Assembly: GCA_024679065.1 (NCBI GenBank) | Contig: JAGIQG010000043.1 | Coordinates: forward strand, 930,001 to 994,000 | DNA from: Sphyrna mokarran | Taxonomy: Eukaryota | Length of the DNA stretch: 64,000 nucleotides | Reading direction: 5' to 3' | Part shown: piece after piece, positions 1 through 62,073 of the stretch | Position numbering within the stretch: position 1 is the stretch's first letter | Layout of the letters: the number at the start of each line of letters is the position of its first letter | Translations under genes and position numbers: made by a program | Notes under the pieces: generated by a model | Seen by the model: only the letters and a program-made list of their open reading frames with translations | What the model was told of the DNA's origin: nothing | The model's database searches: none

Positions 1-572
1 GTTGCAGCTGTACAAAACTCTAGTGCGGCCGCACTTGGAGTATTGTGTGCAGTTCTGGTCCCCGCATTATAAGAAAGATGTGGAGCATTGGAGAGGGTAC
101 AGAGGAGGTTTACCAGGATGTTGCCTGGTATGGAGGGCAGGTCTTATGAAGAGAGGCTGAGGGATTTGAGGTTGTTTTTCGTTAGAAAGGAGGCGGCTAA
201 GAGGGGACCTAATCGAAACATATAAGATGATTAGAGGTTTAGATAGGGTGGACAGTGATAGCCTTTTCCTAGGATGGAGAAAGCTAGCACGAGGGGACAC
301 AGCTTTAAATTAAGGGGTATGAGTTATAGGACGGATATCAGAGGTAGGTTCTTTACTCACAGAGTGATTGGGGAGTGGAATGCCCTGCCTGCAGCTGTTG
401 TAGATGCGCCAAGTTGGGTGGCGTTTAAGAGGTTAGTTGATAAGTATAGGGATGAGAAGGGAATGGTTTAGTTAGGAGGGGCATTGCTTTTTATTTTGGT
501 CGGCACAACATCGAAGGCCGAAGGGCCTGTTCTGTGCTGTATTGTTCTATGTTCTATGTTCTATGTTCTATG
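1..572 (+). mobile_element. CR1 3' end (same young subfamily as the 51248 element)
   Basis: ORF2 C-terminus, stem-loop and (GTTCTAT)n tail. Confidence 0.93.
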
Positions 573-1299: not shown

Positions 1300-2720
1300 T
1301 AAGACCAGAAGGCAAAAGAGCAGAATAAGGCCAATCGGGTCATCTAGTCTGCACCAGCATTCAATCATGGTTGATTTTTTTCATCCCCATTCTCCTGCCT
1401 TTTCCCCAAAAACCCTGATGTCCCTATTAATCAAGAACCTATTTATTTGTCTTAAACACACTCAGTGACCCGGCCTCCACAGTCTTCTGCGGTAAAGAGC
1501 TCCACAGATTCACACTCTCTGGCTAAAGAAAATCCTCCTCATTTCTGTTTTAAGGGATCGTCCCTTCAGCTCCAGGTTGGGCCCTCCAGTTCTAGTTGTC
1601 CGTACTGGTGGAAACATCCTTTCCACATTCACTCTATCCAGGCCTTACAATATGGTGCAATTTTCAATAAGTTCTCGCCTCATCCTTCTAAACTCCACCG
1701 AGTACAGACTTAGACTCCTCAACTATTCCACCTATGACAAGTTCTTCATTACAAGGATCATTCTTCTGAACCTTCTCTGGACCCTTTCGAAGACCAGCAC
1801 ATCCTTCCTTTGATATGGGGCCCCAGACTGCCTGCAATTTTCTAAATGGGTCTGAGTAGAACCTCAGGCAGACTCACAAGCGCATCCGGCTCTTGTACTC
1901 CCGTCCTCGCCACATGAATGCTAAATTGCACTTTTTCTTCTGAACTACCAATGAAACCTGCACGTTAACCTTCGTATAATTTTGAACAAGAACTCCTAAG
2001 TCCATTTGTGTTCCTGATGTCCTCAGCATTTCCCATTTAAAAATGGTGTAAGCCTTCATTTCTCTTTCCAAAGTGCGTAACCTCACGCTTTTCCACATTG
2101 TATTCCATCTGCCACTTCTTTGCCCACTCTCGAACTTGTCCACGTCTTTCTGCAGCTAGCTTCCGACCGCTTCCTCAGTACTCCTGGTCCCTCTCCATAT
2201 TCCTGTATCATCTGCAAACTTAGCAACAGTGCCTTCATTTTTTTTTTTCTTCTAAATCGTTAATGTAAATTTTGAAATGTTGTGGTGCCAGCACCGGAAC
2301 CTGAGTCACACCGCAAGTCACCCGCTTTCATTCTGAAAAAAAAAGATCCATTTATCCCCACTCTATGCCAGTCAGCCAAACCTCTATCCATGCCAGCATC
2401 GTACCCTTAATACCATGGGTTCTCAACTTATTTAATAATATTTAATAGCGGCAGCTTGTCAAAGGTCTTTTGCAAATCTAAATAAATCATTTCCACTGAT
2501 TTTCCTTTATCTAACGTCCTTGTAACCTCCTCAACAAAACTGGAATTGATTTGTCAGACATGACCTCCCTTTGACGAAGCCGTTCTGACTCAGTCCTATT
2601 TTATCAGGCACTTCTAAGAACTCTTCGATTCATTTTTAATAATGGACTCTAAAATTTTGCCAATGACCAAAGTCAGATTGACCAGCCTATCATTTCCCGT
2701 CTGCTCCCTTCTTAATCAGC
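1300..2720 (-). mobile_element. Old degraded CR1 fragment
   Basis: Decayed RT and C-terminal motifs (DLGVLVQ..) on the minus strand. Confidence 0.75.
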
Positions 2721-2840
2721 ACGATACTAATTGTGAACCCAGTTTTTTTTTGGACAGGAAATACCCCTATCTGTGTATCTTCGTTGTTTGGAGGAATGGT
2801 CATGAGCCCGAGATGACACTTGTTGTCTCTCTGTTTCCAG

Positions 2841-3179
2841 TTTCAATGTCTCAACACATATTGTTCCAGTCTCCATGGGTTCAGACACTCCAGGTGGGGA
2901 ATCGTGTTAAACTCAGTTGTCACATCCAGGTCTCAGGTGTTGATTACGTCTACTGGTACAAAGAGAGGGAGAACAGCGGCATGAAGCTGGTTTACACCAC
3001 GAGCAAGCACCTCCCAGCAGAAGGAAGGTTTTCCAGTAAGGTTTCTGACAAAAATGATAATTATTCTCTGATCATTGCGGATACCCAGAAGAACGATTCT
3101 GGAATGTATTACTGTGCAGTGCGCCATTACACGGTCAGAGGATTGATATTCGGAAACGGCTCCATGTTGGTGATCCCAG
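2841..3179 (+). CDS. Gene A VJ exon (V-set domain with germline-joined J motif)
   Basis: ctgtttccag| acceptor; VSMSQHILFQSP..VKLSCHIQ..VYWYKE..YSLII..DSGMYYCAVRHYTVRGLIFGNGSMLVIP; |gtaaat donor; 339 nt, phase 1-1. Confidence 0.93.
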
Positions 3180-6100
3180 GTAAATGTTTTCATTTTTCCA
3201 TTGAATTGAACATTTGAGCAGCAATTAAGACGTTTTCTGTTCCAATTATTCACGTTTTATGTTGATACATTGAAAACACGCGTTGCATGCGCTAATAATG
3301 TAATAAAGTTACTGTGAAAAATTCCATAGTTAATGGATTTTCTGTTTTGTTTTCCGGAATTAGCGGATTCTCCCATCATTTTCCTCCTCACTCCGCCACT
3401 GCATGAGATTCCCACCATGGAAAGAATCCCGTTGTTGTGTTTGGTCAGAGGCGTGTCTCCTGATTCCTTTCCCGTCCGCTGGAATGTTTTGGGGCGGGAT
3501 ATCGAAGGGCAGACCGATTCAGGGGCACTGGAACCGGATGGGACCTACACCATCAGGAGTTACATCAGCGTCTCGGCGGCAAATCGGAGCAGCCGTTCTC
3601 TCTGTACATGCGTCCTTCAGGTCAACTCCCAAGGAAGTAATTTTAGTGAAAGTGTCTCATTTCAGAGAGGTAGCTATTCACAACGACTTCTTAAAATCCA
3701 TTTATTTAATACTAATGTCAGACCACGCAGAGCTGTCTAATGTTATATCATGTCTTTTCTCCCATGTGTTTCCACGTAAATCCAAAACAACTTTGACAAC
3801 CTTGGATCTCTCGTTCGGCTAGAGTTCAGTCTGCTGAAAATTTTACCTGCCCTCTACCAGAGCGCTGTTCATTAGCGCCACTGAGGTAGTTATTTCTGGC
3901 ACAGATAGATGTACAGGTACAAGGAAATCACCGGAAGGTGACATTAAATTAGCCATTTTGTTGTAAAATGCCAGAGAAGCATCGAAAAGTGAATTGGCTT
4001 ATCTTTGCTCCAATTTCCTATTTCCATATCTTCGGCTCCACCATGTTGATACGGTTTGATCTATTATTTTCACATGTAATGGGATACAGTGAAAAGTTTT
4101 GACCCATGCACATTACAAAGACAAAGCTTACTATTGATGGAATACATGGATTTGATTTGCTTTCATTATTGTCATATGTATTTGGGATGCAGCTAAAAAC
4201 ACATTTTCTTGCGTTGTACAGACAAGACATAACGCTCATAGCGTAAATAGATTTGATCTATTACTGTCATATGTTTTCAGATACAAAAACGCAGCATCAT
4301 AGGGTAAATAGATTTGATTTAATTTGATTTTGTTACTGTCACATTTATTGGGATACATTGAAAAGGAAATTTTGCTGTACAGACAAAAAGCATACCGTTC
4401 ATAGAGTTCTTAGATTGTTGCACGGTACACTGGCAAAACTTACCATTTACATAGTACATGTGAGAAAAAGAAAGGAACGGATGTAGCATGCAATACCACA
4501 GGTTACTAGTAACTATAAGAGAGTTAGATTTAAGTTTTAAAAGAGTAACACAACCGTCAATCACAGAATTAATAGGTATTCTGGGGGCAGCTCGCAAGAA
4601 ACAGCCATGTTCAGGCGCCATCTTGAATAGGGTCAGTGGCCCATGTCGGCATGGGTTGAAATGAAATGTATGCTTACATTTCCATCTTATAACGTCATCA
4701 CATCATGCTTATATGTAATGATTGATTCGACCTTTCGTCTCTACTTCGAACTATCACAGTTAAAGCAGCACATGCTATCTGATATATCTGTCCACTTGTT
4801 TAACTTAGCCTTGTTCATTTTCTCTCTCCCTCTGTTAATCATTTTGTTTCTGCCAGACAATCCGTTCTTCACAGTCAGCTAGTCAGCTCGCTGCATATCA
4901 CTACCTTCCGTTTTCTCTTTTCTCTCCATTTTCCGATTGTCTGTGTCGCCTAGTATTAAACTCTGTCTCTCCACGATCCACTCGCCCTCTCCTCTCCCCC
5001 CCCCCACTCCTCCCCACCGCCCCCAAGCCCACAACACCCGCTCCCTTTTCTTCATTCATTCCTGGGACATGGGGTTCGATGGGTGTCCAGCATTTAATGC
5101 CTATCCCTACTTGACAAGGGCAGTTATGCGTCAATCACGTTGTCTCTTAGCTCTATGTCACCAGTTATTAAGTTCTGTCTCGCTCTCGGTCTGTTGATAT
5201 CTGTAATATTCTCATGCTTGCCTGATTCGTCCAGTTAAACGGTGCTCCATTTCAGTAGCCAGCTATCTGTCTCAATGGATTGTTACGTAGGATACTCTCT
5301 TTTTATATGTGTTTCCTTACTTTGTTCCTTCTATCTGTCCCCTTATGTATATCCAAGTGAAACAGTTCTTTATAATATATCTGTTCTATTCCTCTTTTTT
5401 TAATCTCGGAATTACTTTTTCAAATGATTCTATCACTTTCCCTCTCATTGAACGATGAGCTTTCGATTTGTGCTCTCTCTCAGTCGCATTCAGTCTCTCT
5501 CTTTCCTGTGTCCTGTTGAAAAAATGTTCAGCAACTTTTCTGCTCCAACTCATGACTGCAAAACCAATGATCATTTTCGGGGAGGTAGACATGCAGTTTT
5601 GATCAAATTTGTCGCTTATCTATGTTTTCCAAAATTCTAATTGGAGCTGAAAGTAATTTTGTTTTTCTTTTTCAGATATTCCAGTAACCATGTCGTGCAA
5701 TGGCTCACTTTCAGGGATTGTGTTGGCTATGACCCTTCTCCGGTTGGGATTGGTCTTTGTGGCTGGGAGATGGAGCTGCAGGAATCGGCAGAAAGGTAGC
5801 GATTGTTCGGAGAGTTTCTAATCCCACGGCATCCTCAATTATCACTCAATTATTGACACTGTGGACGCAAAGTGTGAAATATGGTCATTTAGCCCGACGT
5901 GTTTTTTTTTTCATATAATCAGGCATTGCAAGAAGTAATGAGGCCTTGACAGCTTCCAGATCGCAGGTAAAGAATGAAGAGGTGCGTTTTATTTCCCATA
6001 ATGTGAGTTTATTTTCACCTTCCTTTTCTCCCAAGGTTCAAAATTGGTAATGGTAATTGGTAATTGGTAATCGTGGCTCTAGAGAAAAAAAAACTGCAAC

Positions 6101-7195
6101 TTCGGCCGCATCTCTGGAGACGGGAATAGAACATAGAACAGTATCACACAGTACAGGCCCTTCGGCCCTCAATGTTGTGCCGAGGTATGTCCAATCCCAG
6201 AGCAAGCTATCCCACTCCCTATCATTCTGGAGTGCTCCATTTGCCTATCCAATAAAGCTTGAAATTTCCTAAAGTGTCCGACTCCACTATCACAGCAACC
6301 AGTGTATGCCACACCCCAACCACTCTCTGAGTGAAGAATCTGACTCAAACATCCCTCCTATGTCTCCCACGATGAACCTTATAGTTATGCCCCCTAGTAA
6401 CAGCTACATTCATCCGAGGAAATAGTCTCTGAACGTACACTCTACCAATCCCCTTCATTATCTTATAACCTCTATTAAGTCGTTTCTCATCCGCCTCTGC
6501 TCTAAAGAGAAAAGCTACAGATCACTCAACCCTTACCTCATTTCGAGCCCTTGGGATGCTTCTTCAGACTAAATTTAAATCATTGGCCGAATTCACCAGC
6601 CCAACCCGCTGGCGCGGTTTTCTGGTCCCTTCGTAAGCAACATACTTGTATCCGTCCCCCCTACCTCCACATCAATGGCATGCAGCCCGTTATTGAACTT
6701 TGGGTCAACCTGGTTTCCCGTCATTTGCACCACTCAGCTGCTGGGGAACTCATGGAGCTTTCTTTTTTTTTGATTTCGGAGGCACTGGCGGGAGGGTATG
6801 GGCGCATGGGACAGCCAGTCATGTCCCTCCAGGGAAACAGAATATTAACTTGGGAGCCACCACATCCATTTACGAAGTTAGTTTTTCACACAATGTGAGT
6901 CAAATATTGGAACACTGTCCCCGGATAAAGCAAAAGCTGATCAGGCCAGTTAACAGTTGGAAATTCCAAAACTGAGATGGCTCGAATTATATTTGAGAGA
7001 TATTAAGGAATATTCAAAAATGTTTCGAGGATATGGGCTAAAGTACATGTTAGTCTTAATGTAGTTGAGTAGAATGCAGGGGTTCAACGGCCTCACGTAT
7101 GCCTATAATAATGGTGTTGAGTACATTGACAGATTACTTTTCATCCACAGATTCTTTATGCTGGTCTGGCCTTCAGTGAGGATCCAACACGCTAA
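2841..7195 (+). CDS. Gene A: non-rearranging VJ-C1-TM-ITIM Ig-superfamily receptor (5' partial). Exons 2841-3179, 3364-3669, 5676-5795, 5923-5966, 7151-7195
   Basis: All introns are GT-AG with compatible phases (1,1,1,0) and no internal stop. V domain with LSC..VYWY..DSGMYYC..FGNGS, C1 domain, hydrophobic TM, terminal ILYAGL. Leader exon lies upstream of the window. Confidence 0.85.
3364..3669 (+). CDS. Gene A C1-set constant domain exon
   Basis: tag| acceptor; SPIIFLLTPP..LLCLVRGVSP..VRWNV..DGTYTIRSYISV..CTCVL; |gtagct donor; 306 nt, phase 1-1. Confidence 0.9.
5676..5795 (+). CDS. Gene A connecting peptide and transmembrane exon
   Basis: gtttttctttttcag| acceptor; DIPVTMSCNGSLSGIVLAMTLLRLGLVFVAGRWSCRNRQK; |gtagcg donor; 120 nt, phase 1-1. 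Confidence 0.82.
5923..5966 (+). CDS. Gene A cytoplasmic exon 1
   Basis: T-run..aatcag| acceptor; GIARSNEALTASRSQ; cag|gtaaag donor; phase 1-0. Confidence 0.75.
6125..6535 (-). mobile_element. CR1 3' fragment in the last intron of gene A
   Basis: Reverse tail and stem-loop (ggcccttcggccc), decayed ORF2 end. Confidence 0.75.
7151..7195 (+). CDS. Gene A terminal exon with ITIM
   Basis: cttttcatccacag| acceptor, phase 0; ILYAGLAFSEDPTR*. ILYAGL fits the ITIM consensus I/V/L/SxYxxL/V. Confidence 0.75.
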   Translation: MLYAGLAFSEDPTR

Positions 7196-10626: not shown

Positions 10627-11560
10627 ATAGAACATAGAACATAGAACATAGAACATTACAGCACAGAACAGGCCCTTCGGCCTTCGATGTTGTCCCGACC
10701 AAAATAAAAAGCAATGCCCCTCCAAACTAAACCATTCCCTTCTCTTCCATATACTTATCAATTAACCTCTTAAACGCCACCAAACTTGGCGCATCTACAA
10801 CAGCTGCAGGCAGGCATTCCACTCCCTAATCACTCTTTGAGTAAAGAACCTACCTCTGATATCCGTCCTATAACTCATAACCCTTAATTTAAAGCTGTGT
10901 CCCCTCGTGCTAGCTTTCTCCATCCTAGGAAAAAGGCTATCACTGTCCACCCTATCTAAACATCTAATCATCTTATATGCTTCAATAAGATCCCCTCTTA
11001 GCCGCCTCCTTTCTAACGAAAACAACCTCAAATCCTTCAACCTCTCTTCATAGACCTGCCCTCCATACCAGGCAACATCCTGGTAAACCTCCTCTGTACC
11101 CTCTCCAATGCCTCCACATCTTTCTTATAATGTGGGGACCAGACTGCACACAATACTCCAAGTGCGGCCGCACTAGAGTTTTGTACAGTTGCAACATGAG
11201 GCTGCGGCTCCTAAATTCAATCCCCCTACCAATAAAAGCTAAGACTCCATATGCCTTCTTAACAACTTTATCCACTTGACTGCCTACTTTCAGGGATCTA
11301 TTGACACATACACCAAGATCCGTCTGTTCCTCAACACTATTAAGAGCCCTACCATTAGCCCTATACTCTACACATTTATTGTACCTGCCAAAGTGCATTA
11401 CCTCACACTTTTCCACATTAAACTCCATTTGCCACCTCTCGGCCCAGCTCTGCAGCTTGTCCAAGTCACTCTGTAAACTATAACACCCCTCTTCACTATC
11501 TACCACTCCACCGACTTTAGTGTCATCTGCAAATTTACTGATCCATCCCTCAATACCCTC
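10627..11560 (-). mobile_element. 5'-truncated young CR1
   Basis: FADD to C-terminus, with tail. Confidence 0.93.
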
Positions 11561-11601
11561 ATGAATATGCATTTCATTGGGAAACTGAGTAAAGTGAGGA
11601 A

Positions 11602-11853
11602 AGAACATAGAACATAGAACATAGAACATTACAGCACAGAACAGGCCCTTCGGCCTTCGATGTTGTCCCGACCAAAATAAAAAGCAATGCCCCTCCAAAC
11701 TAAACCATTCCCTTCTCTTCCATATACTTATCAATTAACCTCTTAACCGCCACCAAACTTGGCGCATCTACAACAGCTGCAGGCAGGGCATTCCACTCCC
11801 TAATCACTCTTTGAGTAAAGAACCTACCTCTGATATCCGTCCTATAACTCATA
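11602..11853 (-). mobile_element. Short CR1 3' end
   Basis: Tail, 3' UTR and ORF2 end. Confidence 0.9.
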
Positions 11854-23100: not shown

Positions 23101-26100
23101 TGAGAGGAAACTGAAGCACCCGGAGGAAATCCATGTAGGCCCGGGGAGAATGTGCAAACTTCACAGAGACAGTGACCCAAGCCGAGGATTGAACCCGTGT
23201 CCCTCACACTGTGAAGCAGCATTGTTAACCATTATCTCACTGTGAAGATAATCCCAGCAATTAGTACAATTCCAACTGGGTGCGGGTGGGAGGAAACCTG
23301 GAACTGACGGGGGGAGAACTAGATCCACCGCAAAAATAAATAGAGTCAAACGAAACAAAAATCTGGCAATCAACAATGAAAACTGCTGGAAACCGACAGC
23401 AACGTCTGTCTGATATATTGTAACTGGAACATTAACTCAATCGCTGCACGAACATTTGGAAGAGCCGCAGAGATATGTGTTCTGATTCCAAAGTGTGGGC
23501 GAATGTGGTTTCGTTCACAATTAGATGCTTCAGACCGTGAGCTGCATGCTGATAGCCGCATGAAGTATCCCGGATGGGACATCCTGCAACTTATTCTAAA
23601 ATCCAATTTCCTCAATGGTATTAAATTATTCGTAAAGCGCTTACCTGAACTGCACAGTCTTGTGTTCCATTTCCATATGTTTGGCGATAGTCACCTGTGT
23701 AACGAAGTGGAAGATGTCAATTTAGGAAAGCAGTTAGGAATACAGAGAACGGATATCAGAAAGTTCTGTCTGGCAAAAGTAGGGAAAATCCTAGCATAAT
23801 CGATTTGTATATCAAACAGGAAAAGAATAGGGCCCATTAGGCGCGAAGGCGATAAACTGTGGGTGGAGCCAGAGGACATGGGGCCAGGTGCTAAATGAAA
23901 ACATCACATCCTTTTCCACCCAAGAAAATGAGGACTCTGATCCAGAATTCAGGGACTGTGTGGTTCTGGAGCAAATTGACATTGGGTAAGATAAGCTATT
24001 GGAGGTGTTGGCAGTCTCAAAATTGGATATATCTCCAAGTCCAGCTGATTTACGCCCCCAGCAACATTGGAAGGCAAGAGGGGAGATTGCAGAGGCACTG
24101 GCTCATATTTTTCAATTCCTCACTGGCCATGGGAACTCCCAGAAGAACGACAAATATGGTTGGGTTATTTAGGAAAATGTTTTAGAGATGAACCAGGGAA
24201 CTACAGACAAGTGAGTCTCACATCAGTGGTAGGAAAACAATGAAAGAAGAATCTGAAGGAGAAAAATCTATCGACACTTGGAGAGACAAAGCTTGTGCAG
24301 ATATAGTGAGCATGGCTTCGCCAGAGGGAAGTCATGCCTAACACATCTGATTGAATTTTGTGCGGCTGACCAGGCGTGCAGACGAAGGTAGTGTAGCCGT
24401 TGTAGTTTAGATGCATTTCAGCAAAGCCTTTGACATGGTTCCAAATAGGAGACTTGCAAATATTCAAGGTAATTTGATAAAGTGCATCCAGAATCGGATC
24501 AGTTGCTGGAAACAGCAAGTGACGACAGGAGGATGCTTAGTACCTGGAAGCCAGTGTCCCTTGGTGTACCACAAGGTTCTGTTTCCTACCCAACCCCCAC
24601 TTCCCCCCACCACCACCATATTCCGTCATTTATATAAATGTCACTGGTGTCTATGTGGCGGGTAGAGTTAGTTTACAGAAGTCCAAAGATGTGTAGATTA
24701 GGTGGATGGACCGTGCTCATTTATGCTCACTGCCAGGGGCATTCGCTCTGTAAATGTGCGGCACAACAGGGATAGAGCATGGATGGGATTGGTGTCAAAG
24801 CAGGTTTGATGCGCTGACTGGCCTTCTGCACTGATGAAATATCATAGAACCGTACAGTGCAGAAAGAGGCCCTTCTGCCCATCAAGTCTGCACCGACCAT
24901 AAACCCACCCAGGCCCCACCCCCATATCCCTACATATTTTACCTACTAATGCTTCTAACCTAAGCTTCTTAAGACACTAATGGGCAATTTTAACATGGCC
25001 ATTCAACCTAACCCGCATATCTTCGGACTGTGGGAGGAAACCGGAGCACCTAAAGGAAACCCAAGTAGATACGAGGAGCATGTGTAAACTCCACACAGAA
25101 GTGACCCGAGCCGGGGAATCAAACACAGGTTTCGAGCTGTGAGGCAGCTGTGTTAAGTACTGTGCCATCGTGTCGCCCACTGCAAAGTCCCTATGATTTA
25201 TCTGTTCAACGATATTGAATATTTGCCTTCATTTGGATGTAACTTACCCGTTTGTCTCTCTTTCCGCTGTCCTCTGCGCAATTTTTGTCTCAAGCTAAAA
25301 CTACTTGAGAAAATAAACAAAATGAAACAGGTATTATATCCTGCAAAACCTGGCCGGAAATATTTGAGAGAAAGGGTACTTAATTTTAAAACATGGAAAA
25401 TCTCAGTATGTGCCATAGGAATAAATATTGGTTTTGAACTGCGTTTATTATGATATATATAGAGAGATGAACTTTGAAAATGGCTCAATTATTCACCTTT
25501 CAATACCGGTTCCCTCTGCTCGCTCTCCTGAAACAAGACACTGTGATCAGCAATTTAAAACTACAAGGGGAATTACATGAGATGAACAATAATAATGATA
25601 TCCCTACTTAAAATTATTCCTCACCTGATCTGCTGCTCTTCCAAATACAAATGGAAAGAAGGACAAAGAGGAGAATCGGGACCAACAGGATAATTATGAC
25701 AATGGAATGTTCCAGATTGCACCATCCTATAGAGAGAAAACTATTTCAAATTGCTGCTGGGTCAAATAAATCGTTCCGCGTTTCTAGGACGGGAAGCTGA
25801 ACTCAGACACTCTAATTGTTGCCTCTCGTCATGCTATATTATAACCATAACTGAACAACCAATGGCATTTTTTTCAGATTATCATTGATCAAAACTCAAC
25901 TGGAATCCCCAGTTAAACAGAGTAGGTACAAAAGCAGGTCAGAGGCTGGAAATCCTGAGGAAATTTACCAGGATGTTGCCTGGTATGGAGGGCAGGTCTT
26001 TTGAAGAGAGGCTGAGGGATTTGAGGTTGTTTTCGTTAGAAAGGAGGCGGCTAAGAGGGGACCTAATCGAAACATGATGATTAGAGGTTTAGATAGGGTG

Positions 26101-29100
26101 GACAGTGATAGCCTTTTTCCTAGGATGGAAAAAGCTAGCACGAGGGGACACAGTTTTAAATTAAGGGGTGATAGTTATAGGACGGATATCAGAGGTAGGT
26201 TCTTTACCCAAAGGGTGGTCGGGAGTGGAATGCCCTGCCTGCAGCGGTTGTAGATGCGCCAAGTTTGGTGGCGTTTAAGAGGTTAGTTGATAAGTATATG
26301 GAAGAGAAGGGAATGGTTTAGTTTGGAGGGGCATTGCTTTTTATATTGCTCGGCACAACATCGAAGGCCGAAGGGCCTGTTCTGTGCTGTAATGTTCTAT
26401 GTTCTATGTTCTATGAAATTAACTCACCTTCTGACTCCTCAAAACCTGTTCGCCATCTGTAAAGCACAAGTCAGAAGTATGATGGATTACCCCCCACGTG
26501 CCTAGTTGGGTGCAACTCCAACAACGCGAAAGAAACCTGACATCGTCAAAGGCAAATCAGCCCGCTCGATTGGCAACACATTCACTCCCTCCATCAGCCG
26601 ATGCTCAGAAGCAGCAGCGCGTACACTCACTCAGCAATTCACCAATGATCCTTAGACAGCATCTTTCAAACCTATAACAGTTTCATCCAGAAGGACAAGG
26701 ACAGCGAATACAAGGGAACACCGCCACTGCGTTTCCTTCTACAAGCCACTTAGTATCCCGACTTGGAAACATACTGGCATTCTGTCCCAGTTGCTGGGTC
26801 AAAATCCTAGAACTGCATCCCTAATGTCATTATGGGTCAACCCACAGCACGTAGACTGCACCCCATCTTTGAAATAGCTATTGAAATACTGTCACTCTAT
26901 TTAAATTTCCCCCACAGTTTTGCACATTTCTCACTACGAGTCCAAATACAATTCCAGTTGTGAAATGTATTGTAATAGATTCCATTGGCCATGCAGACAT
27001 TCTCTGAATCACAATACCAAATAGCATAAAATAGTCGAAAATGTAATTTATGTGTTGTTTTTCATCTTGATTTTAATGCGATTAGAGTCCAGGTATTAGG
27101 AATTTATACGAAAACAGATGCCAAACGGAACCTAAAAATTCTGGAGTGTTATTATAGAAAATTGAACTAATACCTCAAGGGAAACTAGAAAAGACAGATT
27201 TCGAAAATAGTTAAACATAGAACATAGAACATAGAAGAATACAACACAAACAGGCCCTTCAGCCCACGAGTTGCGCTGATCACATCTACCAATCCACAGA
27301 CCTATCTATAACCCCCTATCCTACTCTTTTCCATATACTCATCCAGAAGTCTCTTAAAAGACCCCAGTGAGTTTGCCTCAACAGCCTCCGACGGCAGTCG
27401 GTTCCATTCACTCACCACCCTCTGAGTGAAAAACCTACCCCTGACATCTCCTTTGTATTTGCTTCCCTGCACCTTAAATCTGTGTCCTCTCGTAGTGACC
27501 ATTTCAGCTCGGGGAAATAGTCTCTGACAGTCCACCCTATCTATTCCTCTCAACATTTCATAAACCTCTATCAGGTCGCCTCTCAACCTCCGTTTCTCCA
27601 GTGAGAAGAGTCCCAGCTCCCTCAACCTATCTTCATAAGGCCTGCCTCTCAATCCAGGCAGCATCCTTGTAAATCTCCTCTGAACCCTTTCAATAGCCTC
27701 TACATCCTTCCTATAATGAGGCGATCAGAACTGCGCACAATACTCCAACTGGGGCCTGACAAGAGTCTTATAGAGCTGTATCATTACCTCCTGACTCCTA
27801 AATTCTATTCCTCGATTAATGAAGGCCAGTACACCGTACGCCTACTTGACCACTTCCTCCATCTGCGAGGCCGATTTAAGAGTCCTATGGACCCGGACCC
27901 CGACATCCTTCTGCTCTACAACACAGCTAAGGCTCCTACCCCTTATATTGTATTCCTTCATCCCATTATTCCTGCCAAAATGGGCCACTACACATTTATC
28001 TGTATTGAAGTCCAATGCTTCCGTTTCTCGATTGCAAAGCGCATCCAGTGTTGCACTGACTTCAAATGGGTTGGAAAATCCAATGTCTGAAAAGGACGAT
28101 GGAAGCAGATTCAATAAAAACTTTCAGCTGGGAAACGGAGTCTACCTTGAAGGGGAGAAGTGACAGGATTCCAGGTGGCACATTGATTACTATTGCCGCC
28201 ATATAGTTCCAGAGAACATGGTTTGATTCGCGGCTTGATTCACTGTCTGTGCAGGTTGGCACCGTCTCCTGCAGGCGATCTAGTTTCCTCCAACTCTCTG
28301 AAGCCATGCTGGTTCGCGGGAATTGGGCAGACTGAATTTTCTGCAGTGCACTCCAATGGGCGCAGGAGTACGGCGAATAGGCATATTTCACAGCAATTTA
28401 TTTGTAGCTTTAACGTAAGCATACGTGTGCCACAAATAAATAATGCAGGTACAATTGGAGATCTCTCTGTGTACGTAACAGACGTCAGTTTCTGAATATT
28501 TGGAATATTACTGCAACTGATTACAAGTTGAATTCAAACCATCATTGTGGAGGTTGACAACTCACCTGAATTGGGGGAGGATACACTTTTCGTCCAATAT
28601 TTGCCTGGAATCCCCATTTGAACAATGCAAGTACAGACACCGCCATTTCTCCAGACTTGCCCCGACACCATGACATGACTTCTGATGCTGTAGGTCCCGT
28701 CCTCCCCAGTTATCCCGGGATCACTCGATCCCTCAGTGACCAAGCCGGAAATATTCCAGAAAACAGCAATCTGCTTGGAAGAAACTCCACTGACCAAACA
28801 GACTAAAGGCACATTATCATTCACATCCAGATCAGCTGGCGGGACAAATACTTGCACAACCGTCTTGTTGGTGGAACTGTCTGGACAGAAATTGGGACAC
28901 AGTTAATGATTAATTTACGCACATAAAAAAAGGATAATGTGCATACTCTGAGTGAATTCACTTTCTCCCTTACCTCCAACCAGGAGTGTGGTTGCATACC
29001 GGAACAGTAAAGACCGATCTATGTATATATACATACAGTAGTAGGAACCAGAGTCATTCATCTGGACATTGCGAATTTTCAGAATCAACACGTTCCCTGG

Positions 29101-29895
29101 ATCGCCTTTTTCAGAAATAAACTTACAGTCGGGCCCAGTACAGGATGTAGTGGTTATTAGAATCGGGGCTTCACCTAGCCGCTGTTTGTACCAAGCATAG
29201 TTGGACACCAAATCCACTTCTTGAGTGTCATGACAGAATAATTCCACCGTTTGGCCTCTCGCAGCTGTCAATGTGAAAGGGATCTGATACAGAGAGGACT
29301 CGGATTCTGTAACTAGAGAGATTATTGTGAGATAAGCAATGATTATTGAAATACCAGAAGCTAACTCTAAAAATCAAATCGTCTCGAATGAAAGTTTATT
29401 TTATTAATGTCAGAAGTAAGCTTACATTAACACTGCAATGAAGTTACGGCGAAATTCCCCTAACTTCCACACTGCGAGCCTGTCCAGATACACTGAGGGA
29501 TATTTTTTAGCACCGTCAATGCATCAACTAGCACCTCTTTTGGACTGTGGGAGCAAACTGGGGCGATCGGAGGAAACCCACGCAGTCTCCACAGTCCACA
29601 CAAAGCTTTGTGACGCTTTGAGGCAGCAGTGTTATCCTCTGCATAATCTCCTCATTCATTTAAATCATTGTTTGTCATTTTTTTTCTTAACTTCATGAGT
29701 AAAACCAATAAATTAACTTATATGATTAGTGCAAATGTCTTCACCCGAACACTGGCTCACTCACGCTTTCAGCTTAGAAAACGCTCATTCGAGTTTATAA
29801 AATCGATTCCGCTTGAAATTCCCACCCGCCTCTTACTCACAGTGAAACCTCAGTATTTGGAAAATGAGTATCAGAGATAGAGATTCTTCGGCCAT
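20072..29895 (-). CDS. Gene B: complete non-rearranging L-VJ-C1-TM-cyt Ig-superfamily receptor, 342 aa. Exons 29895-29841, 29312-28974, 28880-28566, 25726-25625, 25527-25497, 25294-25248, 23694-23645, 20161-20072
   Basis: Eight exons total 1029 nt (343 codons including stop). All introns are GT-AG with phases 1,1,1,1,2,1,0, and the frame is open from a strong-context ATG (aagATGG) to TGA. Confidence 0.85.
20968..21255 (+). mobile_element. HE1/V-SINE-type tRNA-derived SINE
   Basis: tRNA-like head (ggtcgattccc), V-domain tgtggagtttgcacattctcccc, CR1-like tail ggccgaatggcc. Confidence 0.8.
21640..21955 (-). mobile_element. V-SINE
   Basis: Reverse head ggcacagtggttagtgctactgcc and V-domain. Confidence 0.8.
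22600..22930. repeat. Degenerate (CA)n/(CT)n low-complexity tract
   Basis: Repeated acacac/acag units. Confidence 0.8.
22940..23245 (-). mobile_element. V-SINE
   Basis: ggggagaatgtgcaaact and gaggaaactgaagcacccggaggaaa (reverse V-domain). Confidence 0.75.
23645..23694 (-). CDS. Gene B cytoplasmic exon 3
   Basis: cttcgttacacag| acceptor; [17 protein letters not shown]; cag|gtaagc donor; phase 1-0, which bridges the flanking exons. Confidence 0.68.
24840..25180 (-). mobile_element. V-SINE
   Basis: Reverse head, V-domain and tail. Confidence 0.8.
25248..25294 (-). CDS. Gene B cytoplasmic exon 2
   Basis: ttttag| acceptor; [16 protein letters not shown]; |gtaagt donor; phase 2-1. Confidence 0.72.
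25497..25527 (-). CDS. Gene B cytoplasmic exon 1
   Basis: cttgtttcag| acceptor; [10 protein letters not shown]; aag|gtgaat donor; phase 1-2. Confidence 0.72.
25625..25726 (-). CDS. Gene B connecting peptide and transmembrane exon
   Basis: ttttctctctatag| acceptor; [34 protein letters not shown]; cag|gtgagg donor; 102 nt. Confidence 0.85.
25962..26415 (+). mobile_element. Young CR1 3' end nested in an older LINE (about 25880-26860)
   Basis: The host LINE resumes after the tail; gaaatt is repeated at both junctions. Confidence 0.85.
27215..28015 (-). mobile_element. 5'-truncated CR1 (second subfamily)
   Basis: ORF2 C-terminus ..[17 protein letters not shown].. plus tail. Confidence 0.9.
28566..28880 (-). 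CDS. Gene B C1-set constant domain exon
   Basis: ttctgtccag| acceptor; [45 protein letters not shown]; cag|gtgagt donor; 315 nt. Confidence 0.9.
28974..29312 (-). CDS. Gene B VJ exon
   Basis: ctctctag| acceptor; ..[74 protein letters not shown]; |gtaagg donor; 339 nt, the same length as the gene A V exon. Confidence 0.92.
29841..29895 (-). CDS. Gene B leader (signal peptide) exon
   Basis: aagATGG start; [18 protein letters not shown] plus 1 nt; perfect |gtgagt donor; phase 1. Confidence 0.8.
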
Positions 29896-58954: not shown

Positions 58955-58997
58955 ATGCGTTTGTTTGGCGTTTGTGTATTGTTCCATCTCTTCCAGG
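58955..58997 (+). CDS. Leader exon of a third gene (paralog of gene A). The rest lies in the N gap or beyond the window
   Basis: acaATG; MRLFGVCVLFHLFQ plus G; cagg|gtgaga donor, phase 1, compatible with an A-type V exon (..FQ-VSMSQ). The downstream intron is a duplicate of the sequence preceding gene A's V exon. Confidence 0.75.
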
Positions 58998-59749
58998 GTG
59001 AGATATCCTTGCCAAATTAAGGTAGAGTGCATACGGATTTGTATGTTGTAAATATGGAGATACTATTTTAATTGTGGGTCTGTGATCAGAGAGAAGCAGT
59101 TTGAAGTAAATCGGGACAAGTAACATATTATTGCCAAATGAAACCGTTGTTAAAACGGGAGGTGTAAGCAGATCAAAGAGCAGATTTGGATCAAAAATGT
59201 GTCATGAACAAAAATTGCAGAGATATGGGGGAAACAAGAAAAGTCGGAGCTAGAACTAATTAGATAAATCTATCAAAGGTGCAGCAGAGTTACTGGTGGC
59301 GGAATGGTCTCCAACTGTGCTCTGCGGTGATGTGATTATGCAGTTTGGCATGCACATTTAATATGAAACAAAACAAATATTAACGAAGGGGAAAATGTTG
59401 TGTATTAATCAATAACAATTAATGAAAATGATATAAAGCGAATCATCAAATGCCTCCAGTAGAGGAATAGGATATTCGATCCATTGAACAATCACCATCA
59501 ATAATCTCAAATGGGTATATTTATCCAACTAATCTCGCTGATATTGGGAATAGTTGAGCATGTCCAATCGACATTACCTGCGTATCTTTGGACACGAAAG
59601 CGCGATTTTGTTTGGCCAATCCCCCTAACCCGCACATTTGTGGAAAATAAGGGGTAATTTTGCATGGCAAATGCTCCTATCCTACTCATCCTTGGCCTTT
59701 AAAGGGCAATTTAGCATGGCCAACCCACATCGCCGACATGTTCTGGGAC

Positions 59750-61973: not shown

Positions 61974-62073
61974 NNNNNNNNNNNNNNNNNNNNNNNNNNN
62001 NNNNNNNNNNNNNNNNNNNNNNNNNNNNNNNNNNNNNNNNNNNNNNNNNNNNNNNNNNNNNNNNNNNNNNNNN
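61974..62073. other. Assembly gap (100 N)
   Basis: Run of exactly 100 N, typical of a gap of unknown size. Confidence 0.99.

What the first reader, a model, noticed from the sequence alone, without database searches (positions are those of the whole stretch)
5676..7195. Gene A combines a transmembrane Arg with a cytoplasmic ITIM
Seen: TM GIVLAMTLLRLGLVFVAG has an Arg, and the last exon starts with ILYAGL. Established: a basic TM residue recruits acidic adaptors (FcR-gamma, CD3-zeta, DAP12), and LLRLGL resembles the Arg context of NKp46/LILRA-type TMs; ITIMs recruit SHP-1/2. The two together are rare (KIR2DL4 is an example). Caveat: the Arg is mid-helix and CGG is one base from CTG (Leu), so it may be copy-specific.
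Basis: partly seen in the sequence, partly recalled or inferred. Interest (0 to 1): 0.7.

Follow-up and report, generated by a model that had tools for sequence, protein, structure and literature searches.

The report
Shark receptor: membrane arginine plus brake
This intact shark gene for an antibody-shaped surface receptor carries both a membrane arginine and a braking motif, but the arginine sits too deep for the usual activating partners, so it likely still works mainly as a brake.

Summary
Both features are real. Gene A is an open VJ-C1-TM-tail gene in a large shark cluster of non-rearranging, PRARP-like receptors. The Arg (CGG, 5741) is not an error or unique to this copy. At this site 4 of 41 TM exons have Arg, 36 Leu and 1 Phe. 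Arg arose at least twice, and gene A shares it by descent with one paralog. The family motif is TxYxxL (19 of 20 intact genes); Ile is gene A's own. The activating reading is weaker. The Arg lies 9 residues from the cytosolic edge, whereas the shark zeta/gamma Asp lies 16 from it. Other cluster copies have an in-register Arg (17-18) and have lost the Tyr motif, the classical activating design. The LLRLGL likeness to NKp46 is coincidental: the family has LLLLGL. Gene A is also a chimera whose V domain was copied from its inhibitory head-to-head neighbour. Arg plus ITIM is known (KIR2DL4, NKp44, 15 of 103 chicken CHIR loci). Verdict: new variant; likely inhibitory (0.5), possibly bifunctional (0.33).

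The parts
2841..3179 (+). Germline-joined VJ exon (V-set; J-like FGNG motif in the same exon), phase 1 to 1
   Evidence: (PF07686 E 1.6e-16)
3364..3669 (+). C1-set exon; the E-T-W motif of the paralogs is replaced (Arg codon at 3585), creating an N-x-S sequon
   Evidence: (PF07654 E 3e-6)
5676..5795 (+). Stalk (one Cys), transmembrane helix and basic stop-transfer exon, phase 1 to 1
5741..5743 (+). Arg codon CGG; exon residue 22, about 12th of 20 TM residues, 9 residues before the first cytosolic basic residue
5923..5981 (+). Conserved 59-nt cytoplasmic exon (phase 1 to 0) that puts the ITIM in frame; an extra in-frame donor lies after 5966
   Evidence: homologous segment in annotated shark proteins
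7151..7195 (+). Last coding exon, phase 0, ILYAGL (family TxYxxL) and stop
1976..3600 (+). Approximate tract (intron, V, most of C1) closest to the Leu-type head-to-head neighbour G000:C1027:914879; inferred old gene conversion. The leader exon lies outside the window, about 1.6 kb upstream (L088:2818-2863)

Best explanation
Gene A is an intact shark VJ-C1 receptor gene with an inherited mid-membrane Arg and an in-frame ITIM-type motif, and it likely signals mainly as an inhibitory receptor because the Arg is out of register for the FcR-gamma/CD3-zeta adaptors. Shown: exon structure, open frame, Arg and motif distribution, tree positions, depth of the Arg. Inferred steps: (1) The chain is expressed as a type I protein, probably disulphide-linked through the stalk Cys to itself or to a B-type chain. 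(2) Ligand binding by the V domain leads to Src-family phosphorylation of the single Tyr and to SHP-1/2 recruitment. (3) The Arg is tolerated by snorkelling to the inner leaflet or is masked by a partner helix, tuning assembly or surface delivery rather than docking gamma/zeta. The cluster's classical activating members are other copies, with an N-terminal Arg and no Tyr.
For: Register: Arg is 9 residues from the first cytosolic basic residue in all 3 intact central-Arg genes; the Asp of both zeta/gamma-family adaptors found in this genome is 16 from it. Internal control: 4 TM exons have Arg at 17-18. Two of them (1329335m, 1062444m) are open V-C1-TM genes with a short Tyr-free tail; two have a frameshifted V and a disrupted motif. 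Horn shark P0017 is annotated with the N-terminal Arg and a Tyr-free tail. By contrast 3 of 3 intact central-Arg genes keep xxYxxL, and gene A moved from Thr to the canonical Ile at Y-2. In mammals gamma needs an N-terminal Arg and DAP12 a central Lys; the K9R change cut KIR-DAP12 assembly to 15% and gave none with gamma (PMC1440944, passages). A neutral TM plus Tyr motif is the family default: 17 of 20 intact genes; 0 of 18 TM-bearing close shark homologs have Arg at this site. Recurrence at one codon is not beyond chance (P 0.26-0.67 for 4-7 gains over 21 codons).
Against: A buried Arg is costly, yet it arose at least twice (AU test rejects one clade, p 1e-90) and was kept in two paralogs through a synonymous change (CGT/CGG). 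Gene A's N-terminal TM half is more hydrophobic (KD 2.34 against 1.17-1.78 in 18 of the 19 other intact genes; one has 2.37), as compensation would give. Gene A belongs to the tail clade that also produced the two classical activating copies, and its ectodomain was copied from an inhibitory neighbour, a pattern typical of activating partners (recalled for Siglec and KIR pairs). The mammalian rules may not hold in fish: a catfish LITR bound adaptors even with its TM charge neutralised (PMC4810170, passages). Tail dN/dS is 0.7-0.8 against 0.28 in one inhibitory control pair, on small counts.
Confidence: 0.5

Rival explanations
1. True bifunctional receptor, working like KIR2DL4, NKp44 or CHIR-AB: the central Arg docks an acidic adaptor with a deeper Asp pair (DAP12/DAP10-like) or gamma/zeta after the helix slides, while the ITIM restrains the signal. 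Skipping the 59-nt exon would give an Arg-only activating isoform.
For: At least two origins and retention of Arg; more hydrophobic N-terminal TM half; chimeric ectodomain shared with the inhibitory neighbour, V 89% and C1 85% nt against 61-67% in the TM, tail and flanking-intron segments; zeta/gamma-family adaptors present; exon-skipped Tyr-free isoforms are annotated in two other sharks (P0001 against P0191; P0192 against P0018).
Against: Register 9 against 16; central Arg in a type I chain fits neither gamma nor DAP12 in mammalian assays; copies with an in-register Arg lost the Tyr motif while central-Arg copies kept it; recurrence is not above chance.
Confidence: 0.33
2. A drifting or decaying copy: the Arg is a tolerated or harmful change in a birth-and-death cluster, and the protein is retained inside the cell or is not important.
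For: The cluster holds many broken copies (19 of 39 models not auto-called intact, some through my exon picking). Gene A lost the C1 E-T-W motif kept in 16 of 16 other intact genes where the pattern matched (3 unmatched). Broken exons also carry odd TM charges. No ortholog with this Arg among 18 close homologs.
Against: Leader, six exons, all splice sites and the frame are intact. dN/dS is about 0.46-0.5 for V, C1 and TM against the nearest paralogs. The Arg is shared with an intact sister gene.
Confidence: 0.14
3. Sequencing or assembly artefact: the Arg codon or the chimeric structure is not real.
For: The region holds exact duplicates on small contigs and an N run at 61974-62073.
Against: CGG is two changes from the family CTT and three other exons carry CGT. 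Both halves of the chimera are 11-20% diverged from their nearest paralogs, which a mis-join of present-day copies would not give.
Confidence: 0.03

Closest known systems
PRARP (Fu et al. 2019, J Immunol 202:1992) and tetrapod VJ-C1 genes (Ohta et al. 2019). Titles seen in the reference list of PMC10751288; neither paper held; content recalled
   Same: Germline-joined VJ, V-C1 ectodomain, stalk Cys, ITIM/ITSM-type tail, two partner-like types (A and B); relatives in turtles, sturgeon and lungfish
   Different: Expanded here to at least 80 C1 matches, mostly on one contig, with Arg-bearing variants; orthology to chicken PRARP not tested
KIR2DL4 and NCR2/NKp44 (named as combining both features in PMC1458963; positions in PMC8102735)
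   Same: Basic TM residue plus one cytoplasmic inhibitory motif in one chain
   Different: KIR2DL4 has Arg at TM position 4 and uses FcR-gamma; NKp44 has a central Lys and uses DAP12. Gene A has a central-to-inner Arg and a V-C1 ectodomain, and is not a homolog of KIR
Chicken CHIR-AB / CHIR1C-2C bifunctional receptors (PMC1458963, passages)
   Same: Expanded cluster with inhibitory, activating and bifunctional classes; Arg gained more than once from an inhibitory ancestor, at shifted positions
   Different: LRC family related to LILR; dual-motif class is 15 of 103 loci there, 3 of 20 intact A-type genes here
NKp46 / NKp30 / LILRA / Fc-alpha-RI type gamma/zeta-coupled receptors (PMC1440944, PMC13107469; passages)
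   Same: Arg in the TM helix; NKp30 also has a joined VJ domain
   Different: Their Arg is in the top half of the helix; gene A's is not. Copies 1329335m and 1062444m fit this class better than gene A
Shark UrIg / UrIg2 (PMC12227049, PMC10751288; passages)
   Same: Non-rearranging VJ-C1 antigen-receptor-like gene of elasmobranchs
   Different: UrIg2 has nine C1 domains; 'ITIM' does not occur in either main text; gene A has one C1 and a Tyr-motif tail

Membership tests
ITIM receptor | (I/V/L/S)xYxx(L/V) in the cytoplasmic tail, in frame (consensus recalled) | tested here: met
   ILYAGL is in frame through exon 5923-5981; splice inferred from paralogs and annotated shark proteins
ITIM receptor | Phospho-Tyr recruits SHP-1/2 and inhibits | not testable with these tools
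   needs biochemistry; single motif only
FcR-gamma/CD3-zeta-coupled Arg receptors (NKp46, LILRA, Fc-alpha-RI, KIR2DL4) | Arg within the TM helix | tested here: met
FcR-gamma/CD3-zeta-coupled Arg receptors (NKp46, LILRA, Fc-alpha-RI, KIR2DL4) | Arg in the N-terminal part, level with the adaptor Asp | tested here: not met
   9 residues from the cytosolic edge against 16 for both shark adaptors; rule
FcR-gamma/CD3-zeta-coupled Arg receptors (NKp46, LILRA, Fc-alpha-RI, KIR2DL4) | Adaptor genes present | tested here: met
   2 PF11628 matches over cut-off
DAP12-coupled type I receptors | Central basic residue is Lys | tested here: not met
   Arg; K9R cut assembly to 15% in human KIR
DAP12-coupled type I receptors | DAP12/DAP10 gene present in this genome | tested here: inconclusive
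   PF07213 (DAP10) gave no match over cut-off, but exons are tiny; DAP12 itself was not searched
Bifunctional architecture (KIR2DL4 / CHIR-AB like) | Basic TM residue and ITIM in one open reading frame | tested here: met
   3 of 20 intact genes
Bifunctional architecture (KIR2DL4 / CHIR-AB like) | Both arms signal | not testable with these tools
   needs cell assays
PRARP / VJ-C1 non-rearranging family (features recalled) | V and J in one germline exon followed by one C1 | tested here: met
PRARP / VJ-C1 non-rearranging family (features recalled) | Stalk Cys, ITIM/ITSM tail, two partner types in one locus | tested here: met
   B type has stalk Cys and neutral TM; its tail was not resolved
PRARP / VJ-C1 non-rearranging family (features recalled) | Orthology or synteny with chicken PRARP1/2 | not tested
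   reference sequences and papers not held
UrIg | Multiple C1 domains | tested here: not met
   one C1 exon between V and TM; UrIg2 has nine

The most novel reading that the evidence does not exclude
A germline, TCR-shaped shark receptor family has twice evolved a third signalling class: a central Arg that docks an adaptor other than gamma/zeta, joined to an ITIM that one exon skip switches off. In gene A this module was grafted under the V domain of its inhibitory head-to-head neighbour, giving a tunable partner for the same ligand.
Probability: 0.2. Interest if true: 0.7.

Novelty: new variant of a known kind. Interest (0 to 1): 0.4.

Why it matters
If the central Arg recruits an adaptor, it breaks the mammalian rule (N-terminal Arg for gamma, central Lys for DAP12) in the oldest jawed lineage and in a receptor family shaped like the antigen-receptor ancestor. 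If it does not, the cluster still gives a natural series in one family (Leu plus Tyr motif; N-terminal Arg without Tyr; central Arg plus Tyr) for testing how activating receptors arise from inhibitory ones. It also warns that 'TM Arg means activating' cannot be annotated without the depth of the residue.

Tried and rejected
Sequencing runs for 2841-3669: no RNA holder listed; this is no evidence either way, and no reads were laid. Complex prediction of the gene A TM exon with two copies of the L132 adaptor TM exon: no verdict (score 0.06, mark 0.34), no evidence for or against. Homolog search with the TM exon alone: 14 candidates, none at E <= 10, weak evidence. An 11-nt micro-exon at 6036-6046 would also restore the frame but is not conserved in paralogs: rejected. 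The degenerate pattern scan gave 52 matches against 27 for its control, so it was used only to find extra exons on the cluster contigs. Same-codon recurrence as proof of selection: not significant. A single origin of all Arg copies is rejected on the tail tree, but a micro-conversion of about 30 nt around the codon cannot be excluded. Gene B's tail motif was not found. Paper searches for a description of this shark family found none: 0; 6 listed; two read in passages, about UrIg and the MHC; 2; 30 of 106 listed, all unrelated; 6, none on it; 0. One search found 0 and one search found 5 on CHIR. Three key papers are not held, so absence from print is not established. Supplements were not opened; those of PMC12227049 and PMC10751288 might list these genes.

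Full report
Observation. The TM exon (5676-5795) and the last exon (7151-7195) are as described; the Arg codon is CGG at 5741. Upstream lie a joined VJ exon (2841-3179) and a C1 exon (3364-3669), confirmed by Pfam. The leader is about 1.6 kb before the window. The TM exon ends in phase 1 and ILYAGL begins in phase 0, so a direct splice loses the motif. A 59-nt exon at 5923-5981 bridges the phases. It is conserved in length and splice sites in most paralogs and appears in annotated proteins of Cetorhinus, Mustelus, Heterodontus and Scyliorhinus. With it the model from V onward is open for 288 residues. The splices are inferred, not observed.

Family. The V search scored 150 of 474 candidates and returned about 40 A-type copies, nearly all on contig C1027. 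The C1 search scored 150 of 244 and gave 85 matches, including a second, B type, so counts are lower bounds. The closest homologs are cartilaginous-fish proteins with automatic names; more distant V-C1-TM-Tyr proteins come from turtles, sturgeon and lungfish. The anatomy matches what I recall of PRARP/VJ-C1 genes. I saw only their titles and brief mentions.

Is the Arg copy-specific? I examined 41 TM exons: 39 of the 43 hits (four copies on small contigs C782, C868 and C1404 dropped as likely duplicates) plus two. At gene A's site 36 have Leu (35 CTT, 1 CTC), 1 Phe and 4 Arg: gene A (CGG), 1709158 and 789336 (CGT), and a frameshifted orphan exon at 649555 (CGT) (three mis-parsed rows re-read). 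Of 39 V-anchored models, 20 were auto-called intact; the rest are broken or unresolved by my script. Three of the 20 have the Arg and all three keep the Tyr motif. On a tree of TM and tail DNA with the Arg codon removed (30 genes; nine models lacking an exon call or mis-assigned were left out), gene A and 1703445 are sisters (93/86) in a five-gene clade (100/100). One clade of all three Arg genes is rejected (p-AU 1e-90). So there were at least two gains, barring micro-conversion. Two gains at one codon are not beyond chance. None of 18 TM-bearing close homologs from other sharks has this Arg.

The tail motif. Among the 20 intact genes it is TLYARL in 13, another TxYxxL in 6 and ILYAGL only in gene A. 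The family motif thus lies between ITIM and the ITSM consensus TxYxxV/I (PMC11599192, passage). Gene A's canonical Ile is one base from the family Thr codon.

Does the Arg fit an adaptor? Mammalian data say gamma takes an N-terminal Arg and DAP12 a central Lys, and a central Arg in KIR kept 15% of DAP12 assembly and bound no gamma (PMC1440944, passages). NKp30 and NKp46 have Arg in the top half (PMC13107469, passage) and KIR2DL4 at position 4 (PMC8102735, passages). This genome has two zeta/gamma-family genes whose Asp is 16 residues from the first cytosolic basic residue; gene A's Arg is 9 from it. Only eight residues follow the Arg before the helix ends, so LLRLGL is not the start of a helix; it is the family's LLLLGL with one change. 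The cluster supplies its own control. Four TM exons have Arg 17-18 residues from the edge. Two belong to open genes with short Tyr-free tails, two to V-frameshifted genes with disrupted motifs. A fifth such exon lies at C1027:622628 (tail not resolved), and horn shark P0017 has the same design. In-register Arg goes with loss of the Tyr motif; central Arg goes with its retention. The lineages are few, so this is a pattern and not a statistic.

Points for the bifunctional rival. Gene A is a chimera. Its V and most of C1 group with the Leu-type neighbour 914879m, head-to-head 17.6 kb away (100/98; V 89% nt), while TM and tail group with 1703445 (TM 87.5%, against 66% to the neighbour). Both alternative groupings are rejected (p-AU 1.5e-10 and 1e-5), and the switch lies near 3540-3640. 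Borrowing an inhibitory neighbour's ectodomain is typical of activating partners (recalled). The N-terminal half of its TM is more hydrophobic than in 18 of 19 other intact genes. Annotated isoforms in Mustelus and Heterodontus skip the 59-nt exon and lose the Tyr; in gene A that would leave an Arg-only chain. A catfish receptor does not follow the mammalian charge rule (PMC4810170, passages). Points for decay: gene A alone lost the C1 E-T-W motif and its tail dN/dS is 0.7-0.8; V, C1 and TM are about 0.46-0.5 (small counts).

Comparison and novelty. A basic TM residue with an ITIM is known in KIR2DL4 and NCR2, and in 15 of 103 chicken CHIR loci, where Arg also arose independently at shifted positions (PMC1458963, passages). 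Gene A has that architecture but fails the positional test for the gamma/zeta class and the residue test for the DAP12 class. My searches found no description of this shark cluster, but three key papers were not held. Earlier scan notes describe the family and its on and off forms; they are leads, and none listed describes a central-Arg-plus-Tyr class. Verdict: observation confirmed, interpretation partly supported, new variant of a known kind. Inhibitory with a non-canonical Arg 0.5, bifunctional 0.33, decaying 0.14, artefact 0.03. Interest 0.4.

Noticed in passing
G000:C1027:1329335 (-) and 1062444 (-); loci L055, L058: Open V-C1-TM genes with Arg at TM-exon residue 13 (18 from the cytosolic edge), a 60-nt cytoplasmic exon with a stop and no Tyr: classical activating-type candidates.
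   Followed up: partly
G000:C1027:1989600 (-), 2681310 (-), 622628 (-); protein P0017: Further copies with Arg at exon residue 14. The first two have a frameshifted V and a disrupted Tyr motif; horn shark P0017 is annotated with a Tyr-free tail.
   Followed up: partly
window 28978-29304, about 28579-28857, 25625-25726 (-): Gene B: second subfamily, VJ-C1-TM with stalk Cys and a neutral TM; its TM exon has 100% identical protein matches on C851, C852, C853 and at C1027:1212013. Tail motif not resolved.
   Followed up: partly
window 58955-59000 (+): A-type leader exon, 88% identical over 300 nt to gene A's leader region, with no A-type V found after it in the window or the next 10 kb; an N run lies at 61974-62073.
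   Followed up: partly
G000:C1027:1172925 (-) and 1029214 (-); loci L072, L074: TM, cytoplasmic and last exons of gene A's tail clade with no A-type V or C1 found in the fetched stretch: likely deletion remnants.
   Followed up: partly
proteins P0001/P0191, P0018/P0192/P0194: Annotated isoforms in two other sharks skip the 59-nt exon (Tyr motif lost) or also the TM exon (predicted soluble).
   Followed up: partly
window 3579-3596 (+): Gene A's C1 lost the E-T-W and nearby Gly kept in most paralogs and gained an N-x-S sequon.
   Followed up: no
G000:C894:2365054 (-) and 2385565 (+): A separate head-to-head B/A pair on a 26.5 Mb contig, about 20 kb apart, the A gene with a TxYxxL last exon; useful for synteny.
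   Followed up: no
window 1-570 and 11048-11734: Stretches that look like reverse-transcriptase ends of LINE-type repeats flank the gene; label from recall, not tested.
   Followed up: no
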